A stretch of DNA of 64,000 nt from Alphaproteobacteria bacterium (GCA_964291675.2 OZ219866.1:1248001-1312000), one strand, 5' to 3'. Positions 6,314 to 36,759 are shown, numbered from the stretch's first letter. Program-made: numbers and translations. Notes: generated by a model not told the origin, from the letters alone.

Positions 6314-7771
6314 ATGGCCAAGATCCGCTTCGTCGACACCACGATCCGCGACGGGCATCTGAGCCTGTGGGCGTCGGGGATGACGACGGGCATGATGCTG
6401 CCGGTCATCCAGCGGCTGGACGATGCCGGGTTCGAGGCGATCGAGATCCTGTCCGACGGCCAGATGGGGAAGGCCGTCCGCGAGCTGAAGGACGATCCGT
6501 TCGAGCGCATGCGGCTCGCCGCCGAGCGGGCGAAAAACACGCCGCTTCGCCTGATCGCGGGCCGCATCGCCACCTTCGAGTACGAGCCGCCCGAGGCGTT
6601 CGCCCTGTTCCTCCTTCTCGCGGCGCGGAACGGCGTCTCCGAGGTCAGGATTTCCGACCCGTGGAACGAATACGCCGGCTGGAAGCGCCGGGTCGAGGCC
6701 GCGCACGCCGCAGGGCTCAGGGTGATCCTCAACCTGGTCTACTCGATCTCGCCCGTCCATACCGACGCCTACTATGCCGAGCGCTGCCGCGAGGCCGCCT
6801 CGCTCGGCGTCTGGCGGCTCTGCTTCAAGGACCCGGGCGGGCTGCTGACGCCGGAACGCACCAGGGCGCTGGTCCCGGTCATGCTGGAAAATGCCGGTTC
6901 CACCCCGGTCGAGTTCCACACCCACTGCACCACCGGGGTCGGCCCGCTGTGCTGCCTGGAGGCCATCGCGGGCGGCATGACCATCGTCAACACCGCCTTG
7001 CCGCCGCTCGCCGACGGCTCGTCCAACCCGTCCGCCTTCGATGTCGCGGCGAATGCGCAAGCGCTCGGCCACGAGCCCGCTCTCGATCTCGATGCGCTCC
7101 GCCCCGTCTCGGCGCATTTCGAGACCGTGGCCCGGCGCGAGGGCTTCCCGGTCGGCCGGCCGGTCGCCTTCGACGCCGCCCAGCACCGCCACCAGGTGCC
7201 GGGCGGGATGATCTCCAATCTCGCCTTCCAGCTCCGCAAGGTGGGGATGGAGGACCGGCTGGCCGACGTGCTGGAGGAGACGGTGCGGGTGCGCGCCGAG
7301 CTCGGCTACCCGGTCATGGTCACGCCGCTCTCGCAATTCGTCGGCAGCCAGGCGGCGATCAACGTGATCGCGGGCGAGCGCTACCGCGAGGTCACCGACC
7401 AGGCGATCGAGTACGCGCTCGGCCGTTACGGCGAGACCGCGATCCGGGCGATGGACCCCGACATCCGCGCCCGCATCCTGGAACGCAAGCGCGCCGACGA
7501 GGTCAGGCGCCGCGACGAGCCCTCGCTCGACGACCTCCGCGAGCGCTTCGGCGGGGCTGGCGTTGCGGAGGAGGAGATGATGCTGCGCTGGCTGTTCGGC
7601 ATCGACGCGGTCGCGGCGCAGCGCAGCGCCGGCCCGCCCACCCCCTATGCGAGCGGCCGCCACCCCGTGGTCGCGCTGGTCGACCGCCTCTGCCGGCGCG
7701 ACGACAGGGCGCTGATCGCAATCGATCGGCCCGGGCTCTCGCTCAGGCTGGAGCGGCGCTGCGCGAGTTGA
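6314..7771 (+). CDS. Pyruvate carboxylase B / oxaloacetate decarboxylase alpha-like carboxyltransferase
   Basis: DTTIRDG, FKDPGG, HTH, HQVPGGMISN, GYPVMVTPLSQFVG. Confidence 0.82.
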   Translation: MAKIRFVDTTIRDGHLSLWASGMTTGMMLPVIQRLDDAGFEAIEILSDGQMGKAVRELKDDPFERMRLAAERAKNTPLRLIAGRIATFEYEPPEAFALFLLLAARNGVSEVRISDPWNEYAGWKRRVEAAHAAGLRVILNLVYSISPVHTDAYYAERCREAASLGVWRLCFKDPGGLLTPERTRALVPVMLENAGSTPVEFHTHCTTGVGPLCCLEAIAGGMTIVNTALPPLADGSSNPSAFDVAANAQALGHEPALDLDALRPVSAHFETVARREGFPVGRPVAFDAAQHRHQVPGGMISNLAFQLRKVGMEDRLADVLEETVRVRAELGYPVMVTPLSQFVGSQAAINVIAGERYREVTDQAIEYALGRYGETAIRAMDPDIRARILERKRADEVRRRDEPSLDDLRERFGGAGVAEEEMMLRWLFGIDAVAAQRSAGPPTPYASGRHPVVALVDRLCRRDDRALIAIDRPGLSLRLERRCAS

Positions 7772-7813
7772 CATCGCCGCGGCGGTGACGCACCTCTGCC
7801 GGCGGAGGTGTCC

Positions 7814-9190
7814 ATGGCTGGCTACGACTACGATCTGTTCGTCATCGGCGCGGGCTCCGGCGGGGTCCGGGCGGCGCGGATGTCGGCATCCTACGGGGCG
7901 CGGGTGGGCATCGCCGAGGAGCGCTTCCTGGGCGGGACCTGCGTCAATGTCGGCTGCATCCCCAAGAAGCTCTTCGCCTACGGCGCGCATTACCGCGAGG
8001 ACGCCGACGACGCGGCGGCGTTCGGCTGGACCTTCGCGGAGCCGGCCCTGCACTGGCCGACCCTGATCGCCAACAAGAACCGGGAGATCGAGCGCCTCAA
8101 CGGCATCTACCGGCGCATTCTGGAGAGCAACGACGTCCGCATCCACGAGAGCCGCGCGCGGCTGGTCGACGCCCACACGCTCGATGTCGGCGGCGAGCGT
8201 GTGACCGCGGAGACCGTGCTGATCGCGGTCGGCGGGCGGCCGCAGCGCCCGGCGATCCCGGGCGGCGAGCACGCGATCACCTCGGAGGAGGCGTTCTATC
8301 TCGAACGGCGGCCCGACCGGGTGCTGATCGTCGGCGGCGGCTATATCGCGGTCGAGTTCGCCGGCATCTTCAACGGCTACGGCGCGGAGGTCGTCCAGGC
8401 CTATCGCGGCCCGCTGTTCATGCGCGGCTTCGACATGGACATCCGCACCCACCTCGCCGAGGAGATGGCGAAGAAGGGCGTCGACCTCCGCTGGCGCACC
8501 ACGGTGGAGCGCATCGACCGCGCGGACGGACGGCTCGCCTGCGCGCTGTCTTCGGGCGAGACGGTCACGGTCGACCGGGCGATGTACGCGATCGGCCGGG
8601 TGCCCAACGTCGCCGATCTCGGGCTGGAGGCGGTGGGCGTCGAGACGCGGGAGAACGGCGCGATCCGGGTCGACGACCGGTTCCGCACCAGCGTCGACAA
8701 CATCTACGCGCTGGGCGACGTGACCGACCGGCTGCAGCTCACCCCGGTCGCCATCGCCGAGGCCATGGTGCTCGCCGCCAACCTCTATGACGGCGGGGAC
8801 CTGGCCATGGACTATGCCGACGTCGCGACCGCGGTGTTCTCCAACCCCAATGTCGGCACCGTCGGGCTGACCGAGGAGCAGGCGCGCGAGCGCTACGGCG
8901 CGATCGACGTCTATCGCGAGGCGTTTCGCCCGCTCAAGCACACGCTGACGGAGGCCCAGGACCGCACCATGATGAAGCTCGTCGTCGATCGCGCCTCGGA
9001 CCGGGTCCTCGGCTGCCACATGGTGGGGCCGGACGCCGCCGAGATCACCCAGGGGCTCGGCATCGCGCTCAAATGCGGCGCCACCAAGGCGCAGTTCGAC
9101 GCCACCGTCGGCATCCACCCGACCGCGGCCGAGGAGTTCGTCACCATGCGCAGCCCGGCCCCCGAGCCCGAGGCGCAGGCGGCGGAGTAG
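7814..9190 (+). CDS. gor: Glutathione-disulfide reductase
   Basis: GAGSGG, GGTCVNVGCIPKK, GGGYIAVEFA, GIHPTAAEE. Confidence 0.95.
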   Translation: MAGYDYDLFVIGAGSGGVRAARMSASYGARVGIAEERFLGGTCVNVGCIPKKLFAYGAHYREDADDAAAFGWTFAEPALHWPTLIANKNREIERLNGIYRRILESNDVRIHESRARLVDAHTLDVGGERVTAETVLIAVGGRPQRPAIPGGEHAITSEEAFYLERRPDRVLIVGGGYIAVEFAGIFNGYGAEVVQAYRGPLFMRGFDMDIRTHLAEEMAKKGVDLRWRTTVERIDRADGRLACALSSGETVTVDRAMYAIGRVPNVADLGLEAVGVETRENGAIRVDDRFRTSVDNIYALGDVTDRLQLTPVAIAEAMVLAANLYDGGDLAMDYADVATAVFSNPNVGTVGLTEEQARERYGAIDVYREAFRPLKHTLTEAQDRTMMKLVVDRASDRVLGCHMVGPDAAEITQGLGIALKCGATKAQFDATVGIHPTAAEEFVTMRSPAPEPEAQAAE

Positions 9191-9743: not shown

Positions 9744-10165
9744 ATGGATGCCCGGATCAAGTCCGGGCATGACGGGAGGGAGGCATGGCGATGGGTCGGG
9801 CCTCATCCGGCTCTCCCTGCTCCTCCACCGCCACCACCACCCCGTCATGGCCGGACTTGATCCGGCCACCCATGCGCGGACTCGATCCGCGCAACCACTG
9901 GCGCCACCGGTACAACGCCCCGTCGGGAGAGGCGGCGGCGCCAGTGGATGCCCGGATCACCCCCGGACTTGATCCGGGGGCCGGGGCATGACGATGGGGG
10001 GAGGCATGGCGCTGGGCGGGGAACGCCGGGCGCGACCCGCGTCGAAGGCTAAACCGGACAGCAGTGGACTCGATCCGGCCATCCATGCCGTCCGTCGCCG
10101 GAAAGGCGACCGGGGAGGGCGCGTCCTTCGATACGCGCGCCTGCGGCGGGCTGCTCGGGATGAGG
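9744..10165. repeat. Cluster of alphaproteobacterial palindromic (REP-like) elements
   Basis: ATGGATGCCCGGATCAAGTCCGGGCATGAC (9744-9773), inverted copy 9844-9873, further degenerate/nested copies to ~10090, and a second family CTTCGATACG...CTCGGGATGAGG at 10121-10165. Confidence 0.8.
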
Positions 10166-10261
10166 GATTTGAACGCGCCACGATTTGCTGGCAATTTCGG
10201 CGGGACTGGCGTATAGGGCGGCCCTTCCGGAAAACCGGACCGAGACAGGGAGAGAGGCGCG

Positions 10262-11653
10262 ATGAGCGGGGAGTGGACCCCCGGTACCTGGCGGTCGAAG
10301 CCGATCCGCCAGGTGCCCGAATATCCCGACCGGGCGGCGCTCGCCGAGGCGGAGGAGCGCTTGCGCGGCTACCCGCCGCTGGTCTTCGCCGGCGAGGCGA
10401 GACGCCTCAAGGCGCAGCTCGCCCAGGTGGCGAAGGGCAAGGCCTTCCTGCTGCAGGGCGGCGACTGCGCGGAGAGCTTCGCCGAGTTCCACCCCGACAA
10501 CATCCGCGACACCTTCCGCGTGATCCTGCAGATGGCGGTGGTGCTGACCTTCGGCGGCGGATGCCCGGTGGTCAAGGTGGGGCGCCTCGCCGGCCAGTTC
10601 GCCAAGCCGCGCTCGGCCGATTTCGAGACCGTCGACGGGGTCGAGCTGCCGAGCTATCGCGGCGACATGATCAACGACATGCCGTTCGACGGCGCCGCCC
10701 GCGCCCCCGACCCGGCGCGCATGGTGCGCGCCTACAACCAGTCGGCGGCGACGCTGAACCTGCTGCGCGCCTTCGCCCAGGGCGGCTATGCCGACCTCCA
10801 CCAGGTGCACAAGTGGAACCTCGACTTCGTCTCCGCCGGGCCGGAGGCGGCGCGCTACGCCGACCTCGCCGACCGGATCGACGAGACGCTGCGCTTCATG
10901 GAAGCCTGCGGGCTGACCTCGGAGACGGTTTCCCAGATCCGCGAGACCGACCTTTACACCTCGCACGAGGCGCTGCTGCTGGGCTACGAGGAGGCGATGA
11001 CCCGGGTCGATTCGACCACCGGCGACTGGTACGACACCTCGGCCCATCTGCTGTGGATCGGCGACCGCACGCGCCAGCTCGACGGCGCCCATGTCGAGTT
11101 CCTGCGCGGCGTCGCCAACCCGGTGGGGCTCAAGCTGGGGCCGAGCTCGGAGACCGACGACCTGCTGCGCCTGATCGACCGGCTCAACCCGGACGATACG
11201 CCCGGCCGGATCACCCTCTATGCGCGCATGGGGGCGGGCAGGGTCGCCGAGCTGCTGCCGCCGCTGCTGCGCGCGGTGAAGGCGGAGGGGCGAAGCGTGG
11301 TCTGGGCCTGCGATCCCATGCACGGCAACACGATCAAGGCGCAGAACGGCTACAAGACGCGGCGCTGCGAGGCGATCCTGTCGGAGGTGCGCGACTTCTT
11401 CGACATCCACCGCGCCGAGGGCACGCATGCCGGCGGCATCCATGTCGAGCTGACCGGCCAGAACGTCACCGAATGCATCGGCGGCGCGCGGGCGGTGACC
11501 GAGGCCAATTTGGCCGACCGCTACCACACCCATTGCGACCCCAGGCTGAACGCGAGCCAGTCGCTCGAGCTCGCCTTCCAGGTCGCCGAGGCGCTGAAGG
11601 CCGAGCGCGACCGGATCAACGGCAGCACCCGATCCGCCGCCGCGGCCGAATAG
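10262..11653 (+). CDS. Class II DAHP synthase
   Basis: [47 protein letters not shown]. Confidence 0.95.
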
Positions 11654-17457: not shown

Positions 17458-18126
17458 ATGGCGAAGGGCGAGGAGGCCCGCGTTGCCCTGACCTTGAAAC
17501 TCGGGCCTGACAAAGTGCCGGCCCAGGTGTTTCTCAAGGCGGTTCGCACCTTTGCCGACATGCTGGCCGATCTCGCGCGCGAGGCGAGGACGGACGCACG
17601 GACCGTGGGGTGGGAGATTTCCGTCGAGCAGGGCAGCCAGATCCTGAGAGCCGAAATAGGTCGGGACGCCGCAATCGATGTCGCGCGAAGCGTTCTCGCC
17701 ACCATCGAGCGTCCACCTGCCCGGGTGAAGCGACGGTTCCGGGAATTGTCCAGGCTTCCCATCGAAGACACGAAGCTGTGGGCAGGAGAAAACCGCAACG
17801 ACCTGTTGCAGGAGGTCGACGCGGAACCGCCCGAGCCCTTCCACGAATACGGAACCGTCGAAGGCGAGCTTTCCACCCTGAGCAACAGGGGAGGGCCGCA
17901 CTTCACGATCTACGAGCCGATCTGGGATACCGGCGTGCGCTGCACCGTTCCCGATGAGCTCGTCGCCTCGATGCAGGAAATGTGGACCAGGCGCGTGGCG
18001 GCGCACGGCCTGATCCACTACGACGCCGAAGGCCACCCACTCAGCATCAGGGCCGAACGGGTCGAGGCCTATCCGTGCGACGAGACACCCTTGGAAGAAT
18101 ATCGCGGGCTGCTCTCCACGGATTGA
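17458..18126 (+). CDS. Hypothetical protein, PIN-toxin-associated (possible C-terminal OB-like domain)
   Basis: GGAGG RBS, lower GC, GTVEGEL...F.IY......VRC; stop overlaps start of PIN remnant. Confidence 0.65.
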   Translation: MAKGEEARVALTLKLGPDKVPAQVFLKAVRTFADMLADLAREARTDARTVGWEISVEQGSQILRAEIGRDAAIDVARSVLATIERPPARVKRRFRELSRLPIEDTKLWAGENRNDLLQEVDAEPPEPFHEYGTVEGELSTLSNRGGPHFTIYEPIWDTGVRCTVPDELVASMQEMWTRRVAAHGLIHYDAEGHPLSIRAERVEAYPCDETPLEEYRGLLSTD

Positions 18127-20898: not shown

Positions 20899-23682
20899 AT
20901 GCCAAAAGACCAGGAAGCCGCGGTCGCCTTCACCCTCAACGGCGAGACCGTCGCCGCCCAGCCGGGCGAGACCATCTGGCAGGTCGCCGAGCGCCAGGGC
21001 GTCGAGATCCCGCATCTCTGCTATTCGCCGGAGCCGGGCTACCGCGCCGACGGCAATTGCCGCGCCTGCATGGTCGAGATCGAGGGCGAGCGGGTGCTCG
21101 CCGCCTCCTGCATCCGCACTCCGAGCGAGGGGATGGTGGTGGACACCGCGAGCGAGCGCGCGGCCTCGGCGCGGCGCATGGTGTTCGAGCTGCTGATCGC
21201 CGACCAGCCGGGGCGCGCCGACGCGCATGACGCCGATTCGAAGCTGTGGCGCTGGGCCGACCGGATCGGCATCGCCGACAGCCGCTTCGACGCCAAATCC
21301 ATGCCCGCCGCCGATCCCAGCCACCCGGCGATGGCGGTCAATCTCGATGCCTGCATCAACTGCACGCTCTGCGTCCGCGCCTGCCGCGAGGTCCAGGTCA
21401 ACGACGTGATCGGCATGGCGCATCGCGGGTCGCACGCGAAGATCGTCTTCGACTTCGACGATCCGATGGGCGAGTCCACCTGCGTCGCCTGCGGCGAATG
21501 CGTCCAGGCCTGTCCCACCGGCGCGCTGATGCCGGCGGCGATGATGCAGGCGGACCGGCCGGGCGCCGTCACCCCCGACCGCACGGTCGACAGCCTCTGC
21601 CCCTATTGCGGCGTCGGCTGCCAGCTCACCTACCACATCAAGGACGACAAGCTGGTCAAGGTCGAGGGCCGGGACGGCCCGGCCAATCACGGCAGGCTCT
21701 GCGTCAAGGGACGGTTCGGCTTCGACTACGTGCACCACAAGCAGCGCATCGTCACGCCGATGATCCGCCGCGACGGGGTCGGCAAGGACGACCTCGCGAG
21801 CCTGGACGCGGCCAACCCGCTCGCGCTGTTCCGCGAGGCGAGCTGGGAGGAGGCGCTGGACGTTGCCGCCGCCGGGCTCGCCCGCATCCGCGACGCCGAT
21901 GGCGGCAAGGCGCTCGCCGGGTTCGGCTCGGCCAAGGGCTCCAACGAGGAGGCCTATCTGTTCCAGAAGCTGGTGCGGGCGGGCTTCGGCACCAACAACG
22001 TCGATCACTGCACCAGGCTGTGCCACGCGTCCTCCGTCGCGGCGCTGATGGAGACCATCAACTCCGGCGCGGTGACCGCGCCGTTCTTCGAATGCGCCAA
22101 CTCGGACACGATCGTCGTCATCGGCGCCAACCCGGCGGTGAACCACCCGGTCGCGGCGACCTTCTTCAAGAACGCCGCCAAGGCCGGCAAGACCCTGATC
22201 GTCATGGACCCGCGCGGCCAGGCGCTCAGCCGCCACGCGACCCACATGCTCCAGTTCAAGTCGGGCACCGACGTGGCGCTGCTGAACGCGATGATGAACA
22301 CCATCGTCGCCGAGGGGCTGCACGACCCGGCCTATATCGAGCGCCACACCGAGGGGTTCGAGGCGCTGAAGGCGCATGTCGCGCCGTTCACGCCGGAGGA
22401 GATGGCGCCGATCTGCGGCATCGACGCCGAGACCATCCGCACCGTCGCGCGCAAATACGCCACCGCGCCGGCCTCGATCATCTTCTGGGGCATGGGCATC
22501 TCGCAGCACATCCACGGCACCGACAACGCGCGCTGCCTGATCTCGCTCGCCCTGATGACCGGCCAGGTCGGAAGGCCGGGCACCGGGCTGCACCCGCTGC
22601 GCGGGCAGAACAACGTGCAGGGCGCCTCGGATGTCGGGCTGATCCCGATGTTCTACCCCGACTACCGCTCGGTGGCGGGGGCCGACATCCGCGAGACCTT
22701 CGAGGCGGCCTGGAAGACCTCGCTCGACCCCGAGCGCGGGCTCACCGTGGTCGAGATCATGAACGCGGTCCACGCCGGCGAGATCCGCGGCATGTACATC
22801 ATGGGCGAGAACCCGGCGATGTCGGACCCCGATGTGGGCCATGCCCGCGAGGCGCTCGCCATGCTCGACCATCTCGTCGTGCAGGAGCTGTTCCTCACCG
22901 AGACCGCCTATTTCGCCGACGTGCTGCTGCCGGCCTCGGCGTTCCCCGAGAAGGACGGCTCCTACACCAACACCAACCGCCAGGTGCAGATCGGCCGCGC
23001 CGCGCTGCCCCTGCCGGGCGAGGCGCGCCAGGATCTGTGGATCGTCCAGGAGATCGCGCGCCGCCTCGGCCTCGACTGGTCCTATGACGGTCCGGCCGAC
23101 GTGTTCGCCGAGATGCAGCAACTCATGCCCTCGCTCAACGGCATATCCTGGGAGCGGCTGGAGCGCGAGGACTCGGTGACCTACCCCACCGCGTCGTTCG
23201 ACGTGCCGGGCGACGACGTGATCTTCGGCGACGGCTTCCCCACCGCGAGCGGGCGCGGCAAGTTCGTGCCCGCCTCGATCGCCCCGCCGGACGAGGTGCC
23301 GGATGCCGACTTCCCGATGATCCTGACCACCGGCCGCGTGCTGGAGCACTGGCACACCGGCGCGATGACCCGCCGCGCCGGCGTGCTCGACGCCATCGAG
23401 CCCGAGGCGATCGCCCATCTCGCGCCGGCCGATCTCGACCGCATGGGGCTCGCCCCCGGGGCGAAGATCCGGGTCGAGACCAGGCGCGGGGCGATCGAGC
23501 TGATCGGCCGGGTCGACCGGGACGTGCCCGCGGGCGTGGTGTTCATCCCGTTCTGCTTCGCCGAGGCGGCGGCCAATCTGCTGACCAACGACGCCCTCGA
23601 CCCGTTCGGCAAGATCCCCGAGTTCAAGTTCTGCGCCGCGAAGGTGGAGGCGGCGCCGTCGAACGAGCCCGCCGCGGCCTGA
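20899..23682 (+). CDS. fdhF: Formate dehydrogenase alpha subunit (Mo/W-bisPGD, Cys ligand)
   Basis: N-terminal 2Fe-2S and 4Fe-4S motifs, CPYCGVGC, DHCTRLCHASS, LRGQNNVQG. Confidence 0.92.
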   Translation: MPKDQEAAVAFTLNGETVAAQPGETIWQVAERQGVEIPHLCYSPEPGYRADGNCRACMVEIEGERVLAASCIRTPSEGMVVDTASERAASARRMVFELLIADQPGRADAHDADSKLWRWADRIGIADSRFDAKSMPAADPSHPAMAVNLDACINCTLCVRACREVQVNDVIGMAHRGSHAKIVFDFDDPMGESTCVACGECVQACPTGALMPAAMMQADRPGAVTPDRTVDSLCPYCGVGCQLTYHIKDDKLVKVEGRDGPANHGRLCVKGRFGFDYVHHKQRIVTPMIRRDGVGKDDLASLDAANPLALFREASWEEALDVAAAGLARIRDADGGKALAGFGSAKGSNEEAYLFQKLVRAGFGTNNVDHCTRLCHASSVAALMETINSGAVTAPFFECANSDTIVVIGANPAVNHPVAATFFKNAAKAGKTLIVMDPRGQALSRHATHMLQFKSGTDVALLNAMMNTIVAEGLHDPAYIERHTEGFEALKAHVAPFTPEEMAPICGIDAETIRTVARKYATAPASIIFWGMGISQHIHGTDNARCLISLALMTGQVGRPGTGLHPLRGQNNVQGASDVGLIPMFYPDYRSVAGADIRETFEAAWKTSLDPERGLTVVEIMNAVHAGEIRGMYIMGENPAMSDPDVGHAREALAMLDHLVVQELFLTETAYFADVLLPASAFPEKDGSYTNTNRQVQIGRAALPLPGEARQDLWIVQEIARRLGLDWSYDGPADVFAEMQQLMPSLNGISWERLEREDSVTYPTASFDVPGDDVIFGDGFPTASGRGKFVPASIAPPDEVPDADFPMILTTGRVLEHWHTGAMTRRAGVLDAIEPEAIAHLAPADLDRMGLAPGAKIRVETRRGAIELIGRVDRDVPAGVVFIPFCFAEAAANLLTNDALDPFGKIPEFKFCAAKVEAAPSNEPAAA

Positions 23683-28455: not shown

Positions 28456-29254
28456 CGACGACGAGGTTCTGACCGGTGATGTAGCCCGCCTCGTCGGAGC
28501 AGATGAACAGCATCGCCTTGGCGAGGTCGTGGATCGTCCCCTGGCGGGGCAGCGCCTGCGCCCGGGTCATGGTCTTGAACATGTGCCGGGGCACCGACGG
28601 GCGCTCGATCTCGGTCTGCATCACCCCGGGCCAGAAGGTGTTGACGGTGATCCCGTGCGGCCCGAGCTCGCGCGCCATCGAGCGCGACATGCCGACCATC
28701 GCCGACTTGGAGGTGATGTAGTGGAGGTAGTTGGGCCGCCCCTTCACATGGGTGCCCGACGAGACGTTGACGATCCGCCCCCAGCCCGCCTCCATCATCG
28801 CCGGCGCCACGGCACCGGCGCACAGCATCGAGCCGGTGATGTTGACCCGCATCGCCGCCTTCCACTCCTCGACCGGGAGCTCCCAGAACGGCGCCATGGT
28901 GATCTTCGAGAACACGGCGGCGTTGTTGATCAGGATGTCGATCCGCCCGAAGGCCTCCAGCGTCCGCGCCGCCATCGCCGCCACCGAGTCCTCGTCGCCG
29001 ACATCGGTGGCGAGCGCGAGCGCCCGGCCGTGGTCCCGCTCGATTTCGGCGGCGACGCGGCTTGCGTTCTCGCCGTCGATCTCGGCGATGACGGGGACCG
29101 CACCCTGGGCGGCGAAGTAATGCGCGTAGCCGCGCCCGATCCCCTGCCCGCCGCCGGTGACGACGACGACCCGGCCGGCGAGGCTCGCATAGCTCGCCGT
29201 CCTGTCGACGTCGATGCGGGCATAATCGATATGGCCGATCCCGGCGTCCGTCAT
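28433..29254 (-). CDS. SDR family oxidoreductase
   Basis: TGGGQGIG, NNAA, YxxSK, TGQ.L.VDGG. Confidence 0.9.
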   Translation of the reverse strand: MTDAGIGHIDYARIDVDRTASYASLAGRVVVVTGGGQGIGRGYAHYFAAQGAVPVIAEIDGENASRVAAEIERDHGRALALATDVGDEDSVAAMAARTLEAFGRIDILINNAAVFSKITMAPFWELPVEEWKAAMRVNITGSMLCAGAVAPAMMEAGWGRIVNVSSGTHVKGRPNYLHYITSKSAMVGMSRSMARELGPHGITVNTFWPGVMQTEIERPSVPRHMFKTMTRAQALPRQGTIHDLAKAMLFICSDEAGYITGQNLVVDGGSSFI

Positions 29255-29883
29255 GCGTCGTTTTCCGCGCGCCGCCGGGCGCCGATCTCGGTCAGGAATT
29301 TGTCCAGCGTCTCGTAGGGCTGCGCGCCGACCACGCCGTACCCGCCGGCGACGAAGGTGGGAACGCCGCTCACCCCGATCTTGCGCGAGCGCGCCCAGTC
29401 GGCATCGACCGCGTCCCTGAAGCGCCGCTCGTCCAGCACCGCGCGCGCCTCGTCCGCCGGCAGCCCCGCCTCCCCGACGATGCCGAGCAGCGCGTCGGGG
29501 TCGCCGATATTCCTGCCGTCCACGAAATAGGCCCGGTACAGCGCATCGTGCAGCGCCGCGCCGCCGTCGACCGTGTCGGCCCAGGCGCCGAGCTCCTGCG
29601 CGAGCCGGCTGTTATAGGTGTGGGTGCGCCGGGCGTAGTCGAGCCCTTCCCCGTCCATCAGGCCCTTCATGCGCGCATAGGACGCCTCGAGGTCGTAGTC
29701 CCGCCCGGCGAACAGCGCCTCCAGCGTCAGCCCCTCCGCCGGGGTCTCGGGGTGCAGCGGGAAGTGCACCCATTTGATCTCGATGTCGAACTTCCGCCTG
29801 AGCTTCTCGATACGCACGGTACTGAGATAGCACCAGGGTCAGACGTAGTCGGTGAACACCTCAAGCACGATCGGCTCGCTCAT
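29251..29883 (-). CDS. DsbA/FrnE-family thiol-disulfide oxidoreductase, predicted selenoprotein (Sec15, UPWC)
   Basis: GGAGG-ATG MSEPIVLEVFTDYV-TGA-PWCYLSTVRIEKL continues in frame into the 188-aa ORF (FPLHPETP, GVSGVPTF). Confidence 0.85.
29797..29837 (-). promoter_or_regulatory. Candidate bacterial SECIS hairpin
   Basis: CCUGGUGCUAUCUCAGUAC-CGUGC-GUAUCGAGAAGCUCAGG forms an extended imperfect stem right after UGA. Confidence 0.65.
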
Positions 29884-29969
29884 CGGAGGCCTCCTTCGGG
29901 TTGGGCGGGCATTGTAGCTGGGGGCGTTGACGGAAGCGATCAGGTATCCGCACGAGCCGGGCCGGCCCC

Positions 29970-30013
29970 TTGACCGATTCGACAAGGTGCTGTATCTTAA
30001 CCGAAGTGGTTGA
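29970..30013 (+). promoter_or_regulatory. Sigma70 promoter and overlapping operator of the XRE gene
   Basis: TTGACC-N17-TATCTT; TTAACC-N5-GGTTGA imperfect palindrome at 29997-30013. Confidence 0.55.
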
Positions 30014-30063
30014 TTCTATTTTCTTTGGGATATAGTGAATGAACAGAAGGAGGAGAAACAGGC

Positions 30064-30420
30064 ATGACCACGGCTATCGGCAAGGAGCTTCGCAAGCTGC
30101 GCATCGATCGCGAGGAGCGTCTTTTGGACATGGCGGCACAACTGAACAAATCGGCCGCGTTCGTCTCCGCCGTGGAGACCGGGAAGAAATCGCCTCCGGT
30201 CGAGTTCGAAGAACTCGTAATTGACCGTTACGGTTTGAAGCAGGAAGCCGCGAATGCCATGCGCCAAGCAGCGGATCAGTCCCGCGACAGTTTTGTTCTC
30301 CGGCCCTACACGGCCTCGGCACGCGATACCGCGGGCCTGCTTGCGAGAAAGATGAACAAGCTTTCAGAGGCAGAACTTGAGCAAATCCGAACAATACTGA
30401 CCGATGGTGGAAAAACATGA
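30064..30420 (+). CDS. XRE-family HTH regulator (ImmR-like)
   Basis: GKELRKLRI...L.DMA..L..S.AF.SAVE.GKK..P; strong RBS; lower GC. Confidence 0.85.
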   Translation: MTTAIGKELRKLRIDREERLLDMAAQLNKSAAFVSAVETGKKSPPVEFEELVIDRYGLKQEAANAMRQAADQSRDSFVLRPYTASARDTAGLLARKMNKLSEAELEQIRTILTDGGKT

Positions 30421-30947
30421 ACGGTACGGATTACATGGTTCCTCCCCTGTCGTGGGGAAGAATAGGCGAGATCACTGAGAAAGTGCGGTCGGTGCTGGGG
30501 TTGACCGAGGAGCCGTATTTCCCGGTCATGCACGTTACTGAGCTTGTATTGGACCAAGAATTAGACTTGGTCCGCCTTGAAATCGGCTCACGTGACGAGA
30601 TGGACGACGCGGAGGGCCTTACCTGCCCGGACGGCAAATTCATACGGCTGCGGGAGGACGTCTACGAGAAGGGCTGGGCTGGGGAGGGAAGGGCGCGGTT
30701 TACGGCGGCGCACGAGCTTGGACATTTCGTTTTGCACGCCGGGCTACCACTTGCTCGAATCGAGCGACAAGAAAAGTTGCCTCCGTTTCGGCGAGCGGAG
30801 GCCCAAGCGAATCGCTTCGCCGCCGAGATCTTGATGCCGTTGCGTTTCATCGGACGAACCGACAGCGTCCGCGCGATCATGAAGCGTCACGGTGTCTCCC
30901 GCGTCGCCGCGCAAACTCGGCTTGATGGCATGGGAGCGAATGAATGA
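30417..30947 (+). CDS. ImmA/IrrE family metallo-endopeptidase
   Basis: RARFTAAHELGHF.LH and E.QAN.FAAEILMP; ATGA overlap with XRE. Confidence 0.9.
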   Translation: MNGTDYMVPPLSWGRIGEITEKVRSVLGLTEEPYFPVMHVTELVLDQELDLVRLEIGSRDEMDDAEGLTCPDGKFIRLREDVYEKGWAGEGRARFTAAHELGHFVLHAGLPLARIERQEKLPPFRRAEAQANRFAAEILMPLRFIGRTDSVRAIMKRHGVSRVAAQTRLDGMGANE

Positions 30948-30984
30948 AGGACCCGAGCGTCCACTCGGGTCCTTCTGTCTTTTC
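30946..30984 (+). terminator. Perfect 12-bp hairpin with T-rich tail
   Basis: GAAGGACCCGAG-CGTCCA-CTCGGGTCCTTC-TGTCTTTT. Confidence 0.65.
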
Positions 30985-31116
30985 TGCGTTGGGCACTAGG
31001 GGCTTGCCGATGCAGAGCCTTGCTAACGATCCAACCACAGCTTGCGACAACTGGTTGTGGCCAACATACGGGTTGAATGTCAAGGAAAACCGCGCCCCAG
31101 AGAAGGGCCTTTCAAT

Positions 31117-31248
31117 ATGAACAGGCAAAGTAAGCGAGACCGGTATCGGCTCATATTCCGCGCATGGCGTAGGTGTCCGAAAACCGGCAAGAAGCTCTAC
31201 GCTAAAACGTACGGTTTCAAAGCATGGCCCATTTGGGTTCGCGTCTAG
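31117..31248 (+). CDS. Small basic/aromatic protein (43 aa)
   Basis: MNRQSKRDRYRLIFRAWRRCPKTGKKLYAKTYGFKAWPIWVRV; AGAAGGG upstream, hairpin downstream. Confidence 0.6.
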   Translation: MNRQSKRDRYRLIFRAWRRCPKTGKKLYAKTYGFKAWPIWVRV

Positions 31249-31253
31249 GGTGG

Positions 31254-31281
31254 GGAGGGGCAGCGCAAGCGTTGCCCCTCC
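31254..31281 (+). terminator. Hairpin after the small ORF
   Basis: GGAGGGGCAGCG-CAAG-CGTTGCCCCTCC. Confidence 0.55.
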
Positions 31282-31476
31282 TTGTCATGGGATCAGAGCC
31301 GTCATGGCCGGGTCGTTGTGTTTGCTCCATCTACTGTGGAGACAAGGGTACCGGCAACTCCGCTATACGTCACCAAGTGTCGCGTGAGGCCGGCATCGTA
31401 AAGCTGCAAGTTCGCCCGTTGGCGGCCCGGGCCACGCGGGTACAATCGGCCAGCCCACGCCGCACCGGGAGGAGCC

Positions 31477-32580
31477 ATGTCCGGGACCGACTACGACGCC
31501 CCATACCGCGTCCGCGAATCGCTGGTCGCGGCGCAACGCTTGGCCTGGCGCCGCATCGCCGAGCCGGGCGCCTGGCTCGACGGGGAGCGGCGCGTGGCGG
31601 TGGCGGGCGAGGTTCGCGCGGCTGGCGACTGCCCGCTCTGCCGCGCGCGCAAGCAGGCGCTCGCGCCCTTCGCGGTCGCCGGCGAGCACGAGGCGAGCGG
31701 GCCTCTGAGCGCGGCGGAGGTCGAGCTGATCCACCGCCTGACCACCGACCCGGGCCGGCTCCGCCGGTCCTGGGCCGAGGAAATACTCGCCGCCGGGGTG
31801 AGCGAGGAGGTCTATGTCGAGATCGTAAGCGTCGTCTGCATGGTCATGATCGTCGACACCTTCCGCCGCGCGCTCGGCCTGGCGCGGCTCGACCTGCCCG
31901 CGCCGGCGGCGGGGACGCAATCGGGCTACCGCGCCCCGGGCGCCCGGCGCCACGACGCGTGGATCAGCCTGGTGCAGCCGGACGACGTGGTGGAGAGCGA
32001 CGGCGACCTCTACGGCGCCGCCGCCTCGCCGGTGGTCAAGGCGCTGTCGCTGGTGCCGGAAGCCAAGCGGGCCTATTGGGACCTCGCCGAGGAGCACTAT
32101 TTGCCGGGCAGCGAGATGACCGACTTCGCGACCGGGGTCCGTGCCATCGACCGCATGCAGATGGAGCTGGTCGCGGGCCGGGTGTCGGCGCTCCATCAAT
32201 GCGTCTACTGAACCAGCGCCCATGCGTTCATGCTCCGTGCGAGCACAGAGGTTTCGGGCGCCGATTTCGACCTGGGGGCCGTCACCGGCGAAGCGACGGA
32301 TGACGGCGGCATCGCCGGCGGGGTGCTGCTGCACGGCTTCGCCGAGGCGGTCACGCTCGGCGACGCGGCGCGGACGGCCGAGCTGAGGGACGCGCTGGTC
32401 GACCGGCTGGGCGAGGCGGCGATGATCGACGCGGCGGCGACCGCGGCGGCGTTCCACGGCTTCGTCCGGGTGGTCGACGCCACCGGCGCCCCGGTGGCGG
32501 GAGCGGCGGGCGGACGGGTGACCCCCGAATTCCGCCAGGCGCTCGGCATCGACGAGTTCTACGGCGCGCGCAACCCCTGA
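31477..32580 (+). CDS. AhpD-like alkylhydroperoxidase-related protein, predicted selenoprotein (CVYU, 367 aa by UGA readthrough)
   Basis: ORF 31477-32211 ends QMELVAGRVSALHQCVY-TGA; frame continues TSAHAF into ORF 32230-32580, giving AhpD-type CxxUxxxH. Confidence 0.8.
32231..32245 (+). promoter_or_regulatory. Candidate SECIS apical hairpin
   Basis: UGCUC-CGUGC-GAGCA, loop 24 nt after UGA; same loop as the DsbA hairpin. Confidence 0.6.
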
Positions 32581-32586
32581 CGCGGT

Positions 32587-33456
32587 TCAGAAGAGCGACG
32601 GCGCCTCCGGGTCGTGGCGCGCGTGGCGCGCCCTGGCGGCGCGGGGGCTGGCCACCGCGTAGCAGTAGATGCAGCCATGCGGGCAGCTGTCATAGGCGCC
32701 GATGTCGCGCGCCTCGTGGCAGGCGCAGCCCGGCCGGTTGCCCTTCTCCCTGGCCGCGATCGGCCGGCCCGCCACGTCGCCGAGCCGCCCCGCGTCGATG
32801 CAGCGCGCCTCCCTCGCGCCGCCGGCGGCGAGGTCGGGCTGGGCGCAGATCGTGGCCTGCATCCCGAACGCCCTTGCAGTGGCGGCGAGCTCGGCGACCG
32901 TCGCCCGCTTGCGCTCGACCGCGGGGTCCTCCCAGGTCAGCCCCGACGCCCGCCCGGCGGCGGCGAGGTTGCGGCGCGTCTTGCGATAAAGGCTCGCGAA
33001 CGACAGCACCGCCTCGTCGACCGCCCCGGCGAGCGCCTCGGCGAGGCGGGCGAAGCGTTCGACATGGGAGCAGAGCGGCGTGGCGCCGGTCACGATGATC
33101 GGGTCGCAGCGCCAGACCGCGGCGCGCGGGCCGAAATCCCGGGCGATCGCATGCACCTGTTCGGCGGCCCGCGCGGCGTCGATCACCGAGGTTTCGAGCA
33201 GCCGCGGATAGCCGGTGATCGTGTAGTGGACGACGAAGGGGATGCCGTCCGATGCCAGGCGTTCGAGCACCGGGAGGAACGGCGCCGCGTTGCGCGTCCA
33301 GAACACGAAGCCGGAGACCGACTCCCGGTCGAGGCGGACGGTGTAGGGCTTGCCGTAGGGGTTTCGCACCGTGCAAAACCCGGCCGCCAGGCGTCGTTCG
33401 AACCACGCGCCGTAAAAGGCCGGGATATCGGTGCGGTAGCTCGCGGATACGATCAT
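32587..33456 (-). CDS. DUF1848 family protein
   Basis: MIVSASYRTDIPAFY, FVFWTRN, C.C....DIGAYDSCPHGC.YCYA. Confidence 0.85.
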   Translation of the reverse strand: MIVSASYRTDIPAFYGAWFERRLAAGFCTVRNPYGKPYTVRLDRESVSGFVFWTRNAAPFLPVLERLASDGIPFVVHYTITGYPRLLETSVIDAARAAEQVHAIARDFGPRAAVWRCDPIIVTGATPLCSHVERFARLAEALAGAVDEAVLSFASLYRKTRRNLAAAGRASGLTWEDPAVERKRATVAELAATARAFGMQATICAQPDLAAGGAREARCIDAGRLGDVAGRPIAAREKGNRPGCACHEARDIGAYDSCPHGCIYCYAVASPRAARARHARHDPEAPSLF

Positions 33457-33486
33457 CGGCCATACCCCTGCGGGACGCGGCGAGCG

Positions 33487-33517
33487 GTTGTACCGCCGGT
33501 TCCCCGACCCTATATAT
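33487..33517 (+). promoter_or_regulatory. RpoH (sigma32)-type promoter of dnaK
   Basis: GTTG-N18-CCTATAT resembles the alphaproteobacterial RpoH consensus CTTG-N17/18-CCTATAT. Confidence 0.55.
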
Positions 33518-33612
33518 CCGCAATCGCAGTTGCGTTTCGGGCGTGAGACTTTCGGGGATGCCGCGGGCGCCGTCACGGGCCCTTGGCGTCCGCTGCAATA
33601 ACGGGGATTGAA

Positions 33613-35529
<1,917 letters not shown>

Positions 35530-35628
35530 GCCCGCCTGCGCGCCAGCACGGTGGCTCCGCGTTGAGTTGCCCACTGCGCCCTCGGCCGGGATGCCGCTCC
35601 CGGCGGTCGCGGCAACGGGTCTGACCGC

Positions 35629-36759
35629 ATGGCCAAAGAGGACTATTACGACACGCTCGGTGTGGCCCGCGGCGCCGACGCGGATGCGCTGAAGCAGGCC
35701 TACCGCAAGCTCGCCATGCAGTATCACCCGGACCGCAACCCGGGCGATGCCGCCGCGGAGCAGAAGTTCAAGCAGATCAACGAGGCCTACGACGTCCTCA
35801 AGGACGACCAGAAGCGCGCGGCCTATGACCGGTTCGGCCACGCCGCCTTCGAAGGCGGCGCGGCGGGCGGCCAGCCCGGCGGCTTCGACTTCGGTTCCGG
35901 CTTCGCCGACATCTTCGACGAGATGTTCGGCGACTTCATGGGCGGGCGCCGCGGCGGGCGGGCGCGCGGCGACGACCTGCGCTACAACATGGAGATCTCG
36001 CTGGAGGAAGCCTACAAGGGCTCGGAGACGCGGATCAAGATCCCGGCATCGGTCGGCTGCGAGACCTGCGACGGCTCGGGTGCCGCGCCCGGCAGCGGGC
36101 CGACCACCTGCGCCACCTGCCACGGCCACGGCAAGGTCCGGGCGCAGCAGGGCTTCTTCTCCATCGAGCGCACCTGCCCCGGCTGCCAGGGCGCCGGAAG
36201 AACGATCGAGAACCCGTGCCGCGACTGCGCCGGCACCGGGCGGACCCGCAGGGAGAAGACCCTCGCCGTCACCATTCCCCGCGGGGTCGAGGACGGCACC
36301 CGCATCCGCCTCGCCGGCGAGGGCGAGGCCGGCATGCAGGGGGCGGGCCCCGGCGATCTCTACATCTTCGTCTCGGTGAGGGCGCACCGCCTGTTCGAGC
36401 GCGACGGGACGACGCTGTTCTGCCGCGTGCCGATCCCGATGACCACCGCGGCGCTCGGCGGCACCGTCGAGATGCCGACCATCGACGGCACGCTCGCCAA
36501 GGTGACCGTCCCGCAGGGGACCCAGTCCTCGCGCCAGTTCCGGCTGCGCGGCAAGGGCATGACCGGGCTGCACGGGCGCGGTCGCGGCGACATGCTGGTC
36601 GAGATCCAGGTGGAGACCCCGGTCAACCTGTCGCAGCGCCAGCAGGAGCTGCTGCGGGAGTTCGAGGACGCGGGGAAGGGCGCCAAGCACGCCACCAGCC
36701 CCGAATCGGAAGGCTTCTTCGCCAGGGTCAAGGGGCTCTGGGAAGACCTGACGGATTAG
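35629..36759 (+). CDS. dnaJ: Chaperone DnaJ
   Basis: HPD J-domain, G/F region, four CxxCxGxG repeats. Confidence 0.98.

What the first reader, a model, noticed from the sequence alone, without database searches (positions are those of the whole stretch)
29251..32580. Two divergent hidden selenoprotein genes share an identical SECIS-like apical loop (C-CGUGC-G)
Seen: two unrelated redox genes each have an in-frame TGA at a catalytic Cys position (DsbA UPWC, AhpD-like CVYU). Each TGA is followed by a hairpin closed by C-G around the loop CGUGC (GUAC-CGUGC-GUAU, loop 20 nt after UGA; UGCUC-CGUGC-GAGCA, loop 24 nt after UGA). The loop falls in different reading frames in the two genes, so amino-acid constraint does not explain it. 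Known: bacterial SECIS elements lie just 3' of UGA and present an apical G/GU to SelB. Inference: this is the lineage's SECIS signature and could be used to find its whole selenoproteome.
Basis: partly seen in the sequence, partly recalled or inferred. Interest (0 to 1): 0.85.

Follow-up and report, generated by a model that had tools for sequence, protein, structure and literature searches.

The report
Two known-family selenoprotein genes with SECIS hairpins
Two neighbouring redox genes in a Defluviicoccus-like bacterium really do encode selenocysteine at an in-frame UGA followed by a conserved RNA hairpin, but both belong to selenoprotein families described in 2005, and their shared hairpin loop fits the published bacterial rule and is not a marker unique to this lineage.

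Summary
Gene 1 (29251-29883, minus strand) is a DsbA-like protein with UPWC. Gene 2 (31477-32580, plus strand) is an AhpD-related protein with CVYU. Each UGA is followed by a hairpin with loop CGUGC closed by C-G, 20 and 24 nt downstream, in different reading frames.

Both are genuine selenoprotein genes of known families: DsbA-like form 1, and NCBIfam NF041238 (425 bits, cut-off 175). In 80 related loci, 79 keep TGA in the DsbA gene. Codons under its hairpin are nearly fixed at synonymous sites, and two stem pairs covary. All 8 closest relatives keep the divergent gene pair, the TGA in gene 2 and its hairpin.

The "lineage signature" reading is only partly supported.
- **For:** loop identity is not explained by base composition (9 of 43,144 background hairpins). 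The same apex occurs in a SelW-like gene beside selA, selB, tRNA-Sec and selD in one relative.
- **Against:** the DsbA loop occurs in loci labelled as several phyla and varies (CGGGC in 20 of 80). One genome with a CGUGC DsbA loop has a Prx-like selenoprotein with loop UGUAU.

The invariant core (C-G closure, G then U/G at loop positions 2-3) matches the published bacterial SECIS model. Sec machinery in this genome could not be checked.

The parts
29251..29883 (-). DsbA-like (FrnE-type) selenoprotein gene, 210 codons, UPWC motif. Its stop TGA (29251-29253) overlaps the ATG (29252-29254) of the downstream SDR gene.
   Evidence: Translation with TGA=U. Pfam DSBA 115.4 bits. U aligns with the first Cys of CPWC in full-length homologues. 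tblastn matches in 80 loci run through the TGA from residue 1.
29839..29841 (-). Sec codon UGA (codon 15) of the DsbA-like gene.
   Evidence: TGA in 79 of 80 related loci and TGC in 1 (L043). The 14 upstream codons are conserved: ATG in 93%, and F10, D12 and Y13 in 100%.
29802..29831 (-). SECIS hairpin of the DsbA-like gene (RNA nt 11-40 counted from the U of UGA). The apical loop CGUGC lies at window 29814-29818.
   Evidence: Present in the MFE fold. On 80 sequences, 89.7% of cells are paired. Pair 21-31 is U-A in 53 and C-G in 11. Pair 12-39 is C-G in 31 and U-A in 26. The covariation score is 0.149 against a shuffle mean of 0.093, reached by 0 of 500 shuffles. Synonymous fixation of codons 20-24.
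31477..32580 (+). AhpD-related selenoprotein gene (NF041238 family), 367 codons, CVYU motif.
   Evidence: NCBIfam NF041238 at 425.3 bits against a cut-off of 175, covering profile positions 1-356 of 357. Translation.
32209..32211 (+). Sec codon UGA (codon 245) of the AhpD-related gene.
   Evidence: TGA in all 8 related loci that hold the gene. All 120 listed database homologues are 221-400 aa and cover 51-67% of the query, which fits gene calls that stop at the TGA.
32216..32261 (+). SECIS hairpin of the AhpD-related gene. The apical stem is UGCUC/GAGCA (32231-32235 and 32241-32245) and the loop CGUGC lies at 32236-32240.
   Evidence: Present in the MFE fold and in the RNAalifold consensus of 9 sequences. 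Identical apex in 8 of 8 relatives. Synonymous codon identity is 0.83 in codons 246-263 against 0.68 elsewhere, one-sided Mann-Whitney p = 0.019. No compensatory changes are available.

Best explanation
Both genes are genuine bacterial selenoprotein genes in a chromosome of a Defluviicoccus-like alphaproteobacterium.

Inferred mechanism: when a ribosome reaches either UGA, the hairpin that starts about 12 nt downstream stays folded outside the mRNA channel. It presents a 5-nt loop closed by C-G, with G and U at loop positions 2 and 3. The elongation factor SelB, carrying Sec-tRNA(Sec), binds that loop and inserts selenocysteine. The products are a UPWC thiol-selenol oxidoreductase (DsbA-like form 1) and a CVYU AhpD-related protein (NF041238).

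Why the two hairpins share the loop CGUGC: both are under the same SelB-binding constraint. Part of that constraint is the general bacterial rule, a small loop with G then G/U near its 5' side. The remaining identity (C1, G4, C5 and the C-G closure) probably reflects a preferred apex among these Alphaproteobacteria. It is not an exclusive or lineage-diagnostic signature.

Shown: gene families, Sec position, conservation of the TGA, RNA-level constraint and covariation.
Inferred: SelB binding, Sec insertion, and any clade-level preference.
For: Family and motif:
- Pfam DSBA 115.4 bits.
- NF041238 at 425.3 bits against a cut-off of 175.
- U aligns with the first Cys of CPWC in full-length homologues.

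Conservation of the TGA:
- 79 of 80 loci for gene 1. The single TGC locus, L043, does not keep the hairpin sequence.
- 8 of 8 loci for gene 2.
- Database homologues of both genes are mostly truncated at the TGA.

RNA-level constraint in gene 1:
- Codon usage among sequences with the majority residue is CTC 1.00, AGT 0.84, ACC 0.96, GTG 0.97 and CGT 0.99 for codons 20-24. Other Leu, Arg and Thr codons in the gene run at about 0.4-0.8.
- Stem covariation is reached by 0 of 500 shuffles.
- The loop residue switches between Val (GUG) and Gly (GGG), which keeps G[U/G]G.

Fit to the published bacterial SECIS model (PMC13188914, passage):
- Loop 5 nt, upper stem >=4 bp, G at loop position 2 followed by U, spacing 20 and 24 nt, MFE -17.3 and -22.5 kcal/mol.
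- E. coli fdhF, read from NC_000913.3, has GCA-GGUC-UGC 18 nt after its UGA, again with G then U at loop positions 2 and 3.

Sec machinery in a relative:
- Locus L079 carries selA (502.8 bits), selB (421.9 bits), tRNA-Sec (ARAGORN, and Rfam RF01852 at 73.2 bits) and selD (363.8 bits), 3-9 kb from its DsbA-like TGA gene.
- A SelW-like gene in the same locus has the apex CUCUC-CGUGC-GAGAG.

TGA is an ordinary stop here: 21 of 38 family-supported genes in the window end in TGA.
Against: - No selA, selB, selD or tRNA-Sec lies in the 64 kb window. The rest of the genome could not be searched.
- Fold energies are not distinguishable from shuffles (z = -0.45 and -1.45).
- RNAalifold on the 80 gene 1 sequences prefers a different, mutually exclusive hairpin at nt 7-13/19-25 with loop AUCUC. 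It is 99.6% paired but shows no change on both sides of any pair.
- The gene 2 hairpin has no compensatory changes, because the 9 sequences are too similar.
- No Rfam family matched either hairpin at E <= 10.
- There is no experimental evidence for selenium incorporation.
Confidence: 0.85

Rival explanations
1. One reading: C-CGUGC-G is this lineage's own SECIS signature. It would be shared by all its selenoprotein mRNAs and would be enough to find the whole selenoproteome.
For: - Two unrelated genes in the window carry it in different frames.
- A third family, SelW-like in L079, carries it too.
- Base composition gives it in only 9 of 43,144 model-compliant hairpins.
- Pattern plus upstream in-frame TGA returned 76 hits in 1.40 Mb. 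Of these, 67 were real selenoprotein sites (57 DsbA, 9 AhpD-related, 1 SelW-like) and 9 were spurious. The loci had been chosen for the DsbA gene.
Against: - The loop is not confined to the lineage. It occurs in DsbA-like genes of loci titled Rokubacteria/Methylomirabilota and Burkholderiales.
- It is not invariant: CGGGC in 20 of 80, plus UGGGC, GGUCC and GGUUC.
- In L067 the same genome has a CGUGC DsbA loop and a UGUAU Prx-like loop.
- Only two SECIS elements from the window's own clade could be examined.
Confidence: 0.15
2. The loop identity has no biological meaning beyond the generic bacterial SECIS rule. Two SECIS elements that both need a small G-U loop on a C-G closure simply came to the same five letters.
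For: - The invariant features across 80 DsbA sequences and the Prx-like element are only the C-G closure, G at position 2 and U/G at position 3. That is the published consensus.
- The sample is small: four gene families.
Against: Three of the four families seen share all five loop letters and the closure. Loop positions 1 and 4 in the DsbA gene are synonymous third positions, yet they are 96-97% fixed.
Confidence: 0.35
3. The TGAs are true stops. On this view the real products are a 188-aa DsbA fragment starting at GTG 29817, and separate 244-aa and 116-aa proteins from gene 2, as most databases annotate them. Alternatively, the genes are pseudogenes.
For: Automatic gene calls in public data give exactly these fragments.
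Against: - The 14 codons before the DsbA TGA and the UPWC motif are conserved across 79 loci at 65-91% protein identity.
- A DsbA fold without its CxxC motif has no redox site.
- NF041238 is matched end to end across the TGA.
- The TGA and downstream hairpin are conserved together, and the hairpin is lost in the one Cys form.
Confidence: 0.02
4. In gene 1 the functional RNA structure is the alternative hairpin at nt 7-25 (GGUGCU-AUCUC-AGUACC), not the CGUGC hairpin. It might act as a pausing or regulatory element.
For: It is the RNAalifold consensus and is 99.6% paired in 80 sequences. It appears in many single-sequence MFE folds.
Against: - No pair changes on both sides, and its covariation score equals that of the shuffles.
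- Its loop has no G, and it starts 3 nt after the UGA, so it would be melted by a ribosome decoding the UGA (inference).
- It does not explain the fixed CGT/ATT/GAA codons 3' of nt 25, or the 21-31 and 12-39 covariation.
- The two hairpins may alternate.
Confidence: 0.08

Closest known systems
DsbA-like selenoprotein, form 1 (PF01323, UxxC). First reported from the Sargasso Sea metagenome (Zhang, Fomenko and Gladyshev 2005, PMC1088965) and listed in the 2026 review PMC13188914.
   Same: DSBA domain. Sec replaces the first Cys of CxxC. A hairpin with a G in a small apical loop lies just 3' of the UGA.
   Different: Nothing essential differs. Here it sits in a Defluviicoccus-like chromosome, overlaps an SDR gene by ATGA, and is divergent from an AhpD-related selenoprotein gene.
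AhpD-related (seleno)protein, NCBIfam NF041238 'AhpD_rel_CFYUT' ('hypothetical protein 1' of the Sargasso Sea study).
   Same: Full-length match well above the cut-off, with a CxxU motif. The closest database homologue already bears this name in a Defluviicoccus MAG.
   Different: The motif is CVYUT instead of the CFYUT in the family's name.
Bacterial SECIS element and SelB. The consensus model is the one behind bSECISearch, as summarised in PMC13188914. The archetype is E. coli fdhF.
   Same: The element lies in the coding region directly 3' of the UGA, with a small apical loop carrying G then U at loop positions 2-3. Spacing falls within 16-37 nt.
   Different: The loop here is 5 nt (CGUGC) on a C-G closure. 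E. coli fdhF has a 4-nt GGUC loop on an A-U closure, 18 nt after the UGA. No Rfam family matched. SelB binding is inferred, not shown.
Clustering of selenoprotein genes, for example Prx-like with AhpD-like (mentioned in PMC13188914, passage).
   Same: Two redox selenoprotein genes sit side by side. In L067 a Prx-like and a DsbA-like gene are in tandem.
   Different: The DsbA-like/AhpD-related divergent pair is kept only in the 8 closest loci of 80. At least two further genomes appear to hold both genes far apart. This rests on matching contig lengths.

Membership tests
DsbA-like selenoprotein form 1 | DSBA-like thioredoxin-fold domain | tested here: met
   PF01323 at 115.4 bits, residues 7-197, profile positions 2-190 of 191.
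DsbA-like selenoprotein form 1 | UxxC motif with Sec aligned to the first Cys of CxxC in Cys homologues | tested here: met
   UPWC in the window. Of the 9 full-length homologues aligned, 7 have CPWC at the same columns and 2 have RPWC.
DsbA-like selenoprotein form 1 | In-frame TGA conserved in orthologues, with coding sequence conserved on both sides | tested here: met
   TGA in 79 of 80 loci. Matches run from residue 1 to about 205.
AhpD-related (seleno)protein NF041238 | Score above the curated cut-off over the full profile | tested here: met
   425.3 bits against 175, profile positions 1-356 of 357.
AhpD-related (seleno)protein NF041238 | CxxU motif encoded by an in-frame TGA that is conserved in relatives | tested here: met
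   CVYU. TGA in 8 of 8 loci that hold the gene.
Bacterial SECIS (consensus model quoted in PMC13188914) | Apical loop of 3-9 nt on an upper stem of 4-16 bp | tested here: met
   Both loops are 5 nt. The upper stem is 4 bp, then a mismatch, then 4 bp in gene 1, and 5 bp in gene 2.
Bacterial SECIS (consensus model quoted in PMC13188914) | G in one of the first two loop positions, usually followed by G or U | tested here: met
   CGUGC has G at position 2 and U at position 3. G2 is present in 80 of 80 DsbA sequences; position 3 is U in 59 and G in 21.
Bacterial SECIS (consensus model quoted in PMC13188914) | 16-37 nt between the UGA and the apical loop | tested here: met
   20 nt and 24 nt.
Bacterial SECIS (consensus model quoted in PMC13188914) | MFE <= -7.5 kcal/mol | tested here: met
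   -17.3 and -22.5 kcal/mol for 62-nt segments. Neither is better than shuffles.
Bacterial SECIS (consensus model quoted in PMC13188914) | Structure supported by compensatory changes | tested here: inconclusive
   Gene 1 is supported: 2 pairs change on both sides, and 0 of 500 shuffles reach the observed score. A competing hairpin also exists. Gene 2 has no informative variation.
Bacterial SECIS (consensus model quoted in PMC13188914) | Binds SelB and directs Sec insertion | not testable with these tools
   Needs binding or read-through assays.
Sec-decoding organism | selA, selB, selC (tRNA-Sec) and selD present in the genome | not testable with these tools
   None lies in the window. In the relative L079 all four lie within 9 kb of the DsbA-like gene.
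Rfam RNA families | Match to a curated covariance model | tested here: not met
   At E <= 10 over 29000-33000 there were only two snoRNA-model matches far below their gathering scores, taken as chance, and neither overlaps a hairpin.

The most novel reading that the evidence does not exclude
SelB in the Defluviicoccus clade and related Alphaproteobacteria may have a narrower optimum than the generic bacterial SECIS rule: a C-G-closed pentaloop CGUGC. At least three unrelated selenoprotein mRNAs (DsbA-like, AhpD-related, SelW-like) would then have converged on it, in two different reading frames and at the cost of rare codons. If so, a clade-specific SECIS model would find selenoprotein genes in these mostly uncultured genomes with far fewer false positives than the generic model. 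The generic rule gave 469 mostly spurious candidates in 1.40 Mb. The CGUGC rule with an upstream in-frame TGA gave 9 spurious among 76.
Probability: 0.3. Interest if true: 0.4.

Novelty: new member of a known kind. Interest (0 to 1): 0.25.

Why it matters
Practical value is mainly for annotation. Most public gene calls for these two families are cut at the UGA. Close homologues of gene 1 are listed at 183-190 aa, and homologues of gene 2 mostly at 234-257 aa. As called, the products lack all or part of their redox motif (the gene 1 fragment loses the whole UPWC; the gene 2 fragment stops just before the Sec).

The data also give a clean case of RNA structure overriding codon choice and even amino-acid identity inside a coding region. 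Rare AGT and CGT codons are fixed, and the loop residue switches between Val and Gly.

The recurrence of one exact loop in three families is a modest lead on SelB-SECIS co-adaptation in Alphaproteobacteria. It does not open a new class of system.

Tried and rejected
- **Rfam over 29000-33000 at E <= 10:** no SECIS-type match. The whole window at gathering thresholds gave only tRNA-Arg.
- **tblastn of gene 2 against PLSDB plasmids:** no match, so no more distant DNA was available for gene 2.
- **GC3-based scans for further in-frame-TGA genes in the window:** only the two known genes looked real. The other 13 of 15 hits were gene ends followed by an in-frame neighbour, or antisense frames.
- **The same idea over the loci, with a Cys-nearby filter:** 43 candidates, of which the only convincing new one was the Prx-like gene in L067. 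This scan missed the SelW-like gene of L079.
- **A generic bacterial SECIS scan with a Cys-nearby filter:** 549 candidates, 469 of them outside the two families. Too noisy to use.
- **tblastn of the L067 Prx-like and L079 SelW-like proteins against all held DNA:** each was found only in its own locus, so the sample of other SECIS elements stayed at two.
- **tblastn of L079 SelA, SelB and SelD against all held DNA:** found only in L079. The one other hit, in L053 at 28% identity, I take to be an unrelated GTPase.
- **An odd 99-nt 'tRNA-???' in L038:** no Rfam family reached its gathering score.
- **Genome-wide TGA reassignment:** rejected, because 21 of 38 family-supported genes end in TGA.
- **Not spent:** the last large protein search, on looking for SelD of this genome. 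Only the 120 best hits are listed, and the available query (from L079) is distant, so success was unlikely.
- **No complex or structure prediction was run,** because no binding claim is made.

Full report
**What is there**

The stretch 29251-32580 holds two divergently transcribed genes.

- **Gene 1** is on the minus strand at 29251-29883. It starts at an ATG preceded by GGAGG. Read with TGA=U it gives MSEPIVLEVFTDYVUPWCYL..., with TGA as codon 15. It is a DSBA-domain protein (PF01323, 115.4 bits).
- **Gene 2** is on the plus strand at 31477-32580. It reads ...HQCVYUTSAH... with TGA as codon 245. It matches NCBIfam NF041238, 'alkylhydroperoxidase-related (seleno)protein, AhpD_rel_CFYUT', end to end at 425.3 bits against a curated cut-off of 175.
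- **The hairpins** appear in the minimum-free-energy folds of the 62 nt that start at each UGA. Gene 1 has GUAC-CGUGC-GUAU with the loop 20 nt after the UGA. Gene 2 has UGCUC-CGUGC-GAGCA with the loop 24 nt after the UGA.
- **The frames differ.** The loop spans Thr-Val-Arg codons in gene 1 and Arg-Ala codons in gene 2.

**Where the window comes from**

The window has 69.6% G+C and carries dnaK, dnaJ and ordinary housekeeping genes. Searching species-representative genomes with gene 1 returned 80 loci. The best is a Defluviicoccus sp. MAG at 91% identity. The rest are mostly MAGs titled Alphaproteobacteria, Rhodospirillaceae or Stellaceae. A few are titled Rokubacteria, Methylomirabilota, Burkholderiales, Gammaproteobacteria or Pseudomonadales.

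In the eight closest loci (L001-L008) the order dnaK, AhpD-related gene, DsbA-like gene, SDR, glutamine-synthetase-like gene is kept. DnaK is 87-97% identical.

**Is gene 1 a selenoprotein gene?**

- Codon 15 is TGA in 79 of 80 loci and TGC in one, L043.
- The tblastn matches run from residue 1 across the TGA to the end. The 14 codons before the TGA are conserved: ATG in 93%, and F10, D12 and Y13 in 100%.
- In the protein database the closest homologues (about 70-99% identical) are 183-190 aa and begin just after the TGA. Nine full-length homologues of 206-215 aa (62-71% identical) were aligned: seven have CPWC where the window has UPWC, and two have RPWC.
- The one Cys-form locus (L043) does not keep the downstream hairpin sequence.

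**Is the gene 1 hairpin real?**

- Across 80 Sec-form sequences the codons under the hairpin are almost fixed at synonymous sites. CTC is at 1.00, AGT 0.84, ACC 0.96, GTG 0.97 and CGT 0.99. Elsewhere in the gene, Leu, Arg and Thr columns use 3-6 codons with the commonest at about 0.4-0.8. AGT and CGT are not the codons used elsewhere for Ser and Arg in these sequences.
- On the ungapped 54-column alignment A2, the hairpin at nt 11-23/29-40 is paired in 89.7% of cells.
  - Pair 21-31 is U-A in 53 distinct sequences and C-G in 11, with none broken. This couples a silent AGT-to-AGC change with an Ile-to-Val change.
  - Pair 12-39 is C-G in 31, U-A in 26, U-G in 3 and unpaired in 4.
  - The covariation score is 0.149 against 0.093 for shuffles, and 0 of 500 shuffles reach it. 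Structures with the 3' partners slid by 1-3 columns pair in only 28-51% of cells.
- A caveat: RNAalifold on the same alignment prefers a mutually exclusive hairpin at nt 7-13/19-25 with loop AUCUC. It is 99.6% paired, but no pair changes on both sides and it is no better than shuffles.
  - Its loop has no G. It starts 3 nt after the UGA, so a ribosome decoding the UGA would melt it (inference).
  - I treat it as a possible alternative conformer and not as the SECIS.
- Folding energy alone is not informative for either gene (z = -0.45 and -1.45).

**Gene 2**

- A homologue lies within 10 kb of the DsbA-like gene in 8 of 80 loci, always divergent. It is directly adjacent (about 120-165 nt apart) in L002, L004 and L008.
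- All eight have the TGA and an identical UGCUC-CGUGC-GAGCA apex.
- RNAalifold on the nine sequences recovers the hairpin, but none of its 20 pairs has a compensatory change, because the sequences are too close.
- Synonymous codon identity is 0.83 in codons 246-263 against 0.68 in the rest of the gene (13 and 175 informative columns, one-sided Mann-Whitney p = 0.019). Codons 246-249 and 253-256 are completely invariant.
- All 120 listed database homologues, down to 51% identity, cover only about two thirds of the query, consistent with gene calls that end at the TGA. The best one is already named 'alkylhydroperoxidase-related (seleno)protein [Defluviicoccus sp.]' by NCBI.

**Sec machinery**

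The window has no tRNA-Sec (ARAGORN, Rfam) and no selA, selB or selD among 43 ORFs scanned.

One relative fills the gap indirectly. In L079 the DsbA-like TGA gene at 10001-10618 is followed within 9 kb by:
- selA (TIGR00474, 502.8 bits; only profile positions 2-354 of 455 are matched in that frame);
- selB (TIGR00475, 421.9 bits);
- tRNA-Sec at 17479-17570 (ARAGORN, and RF01852 at 73.2 bits against a gathering score of 47);
- selD (TIGR00476, 363.8 bits);
- a SelT/SelW/SelH-family gene with CVQU.

TGA is a normal stop in the window. Of 38 family-supported genes, 21 end in TGA. That excludes a genome-wide reassignment.

**The shared loop**

Base composition does not explain the identity. Among hairpins that follow any TGA in 1.40 Mb of related DNA and satisfy the loose SECIS rule, 9 of 43,144 (stem >=4 bp) or 8 of 17,467 (stem >=5 bp) have CGUGC on a C-G closure. 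The two gene families themselves were left out of this count.

A pattern search for a stem of at least 4 bp, loop CGUGC, and an open in-frame TGA 16-37 nt upstream gave 76 hits. Of these, 57 were DsbA-like, 9 AhpD-related and 10 other. One of the 10 is the SelW-like gene of L079, whose apex CUCUC-CGUGC-GAGAG lies 21 nt after its UGA. So three unrelated families carry the same apex.

Three facts argue against calling it a lineage signature:
1. In the DsbA family the loop is found in loci labelled as several different phyla.
2. It varies within that family: CGUGC 57, CGGGC 20, UGGGC 1, GGUCC 1, GGUUC 1, out of 80. The C-G closure and G at loop position 2 are invariant, and position 3 is U or G.
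3. In L067, whose DsbA loop is CGUGC, a Prx-like selenoprotein gene (FRGHWUPYC) directly upstream has GCGGAGC-UGUAU-GCUCUGC. Its family assignment is weak (thiol peroxidase NF006960, 44.9 bits against a cut-off of 140).

What all of these share is a pentaloop on a C-G pair with G then U/G at positions 2-3.

**Comparison with what is known**

- The 2005 Sargasso Sea study already reported DsbA-like (UXXC, 9 sequences), AhpD-like (CXXU) and 'hypothetical protein 1' (CXXU) selenoproteins, with SECIS-like hairpins bearing a conserved loop G (PMC1088965, passages).
[quoted passage not shown] It also gives the consensus bacterial SECIS model: loop 3-9 nt, upper stem 4-16 bp, G in the first two loop positions usually followed by G or U, 16-37 nt from the UGA, and MFE <= -7.5 kcal/mol. 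It mentions clustering of selenoprotein genes as well (PMC13188914, passages).
- Both hairpins here meet every criterion of that model.
- The E. coli fdhF element, read from NC_000913.3, is GCA-GGUC-UGC 18 nt after its UGA. It has the same G-U at loop positions 2-3 but a 4-nt loop and an A-U closure.
- Using a SECIS model to find selenoproteomes is the principle of the consensus-model approach that the review describes. That the usual tool is called bSECISearch is my recollection, not a tool result.
- For PMC8124441 I saw only passages about selC nested in selB in Alphaproteobacteria. It says nothing on loop sequence.
- One search for Defluviicoccus together with selenocysteine found a single paper. 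I saw only its listing, which did not look relevant, and did not open it.
- I ran no search for the string CGUGC itself, so I cannot say whether this loop has been remarked on in print.

**Verdict**

The genes are new members of families known for two decades.

The shared loop is non-random. It is best read as the generic SelB-binding rule plus, possibly, a preferred apex among these Alphaproteobacteria. It is not a signature that defines this lineage or suffices to find its selenoproteome. The sample behind that last judgement is small: four gene families, and only two of them from the window's own clade.

Interest is low to moderate.

Noticed in passing
window 29884-31476 (XRE-type HTH gene 30064-30420; M78/ImmA-type peptidase gene 30417-30947): The 1.6-kb spacer between the two selenoprotein genes has 56-59% G+C against 69.6% for the window. 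It carries an overlapping HTH plus Peptidase_M78 gene pair. Neither protein has a match in any of the 80 related loci, and in L002, L004 and L008 the two selenoprotein genes are only about 120-165 nt apart. It looks like a recent insertion of foreign DNA into the shared promoter region.
   Followed up: partly
L079 12274-18999: A selenium gene cluster lies beside the DsbA-like gene: a thioredoxin-reductase-like gene, selA, selB, tRNA-Sec, selD and a SelW-like selenoprotein gene. selA and selB read as a single 1350-codon ORF. The selA match stops at profile position 354 of 455, so there may be a frameshift or an assembly error at the selA 3' end.
   Followed up: partly
L067 9328-9984: A Prx-like selenoprotein gene (FRGHWUPYC) sits 17 nt upstream of the DsbA-like selenoprotein gene, in tandem. 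Its SECIS loop is UGUAU on a C-G closure with an 8-bp stem.
   Followed up: partly
L014 about 7604-7825, next to tRNA-Leu 7506-7592: This is a second, truncated copy of the DsbA-like 5' end. It keeps the TGA and the first half of the hairpin, then diverges. It looks like a remnant of a duplication or rearrangement beside a tRNA gene.
   Followed up: no
proteins P0027 and P0031 (database homologues of gene 1): Two full-length homologues have Arg (RPWC) at the Sec/Cys position. No DNA was available, so I could not tell whether this is a CGA codon or an artefact of how the sequence was produced.
   Followed up: no
window 29251-29254: The stop TGA of the DsbA-like gene overlaps the ATG of the downstream SDR gene (ATGA), which suggests translational coupling. 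The DsbA-like, SDR and glutamine-synthetase-like gene order is kept in L001-L009 and L011.
   Followed up: partly
window 20899-23682: The formate dehydrogenase alpha-subunit gene (TIGR01591, 727 bits) is one uninterrupted 927-codon ORF. The best-known bacterial selenoenzyme is therefore not encoded as a selenoprotein here. I did not check the residue at the catalytic position.
   Followed up: no
window 32587 to about 33500, minus strand: the ORF listing reports a 1367-codon ORF (32587-36690) antisense to dnaK, which is an artefact of the high G+C. Only its 3' end looks like a real gene, with a Cys-rich C-terminus. That part is conserved next to gene 2 at 57-82% identity in L001, L002, L005 and L008. 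No family search was run on it.
   Followed up: no
L038 7714-7812: ARAGORN reports a 99-nt 'tRNA-???' with an odd anticodon. No Rfam family reaches its gathering score there.
   Followed up: partly
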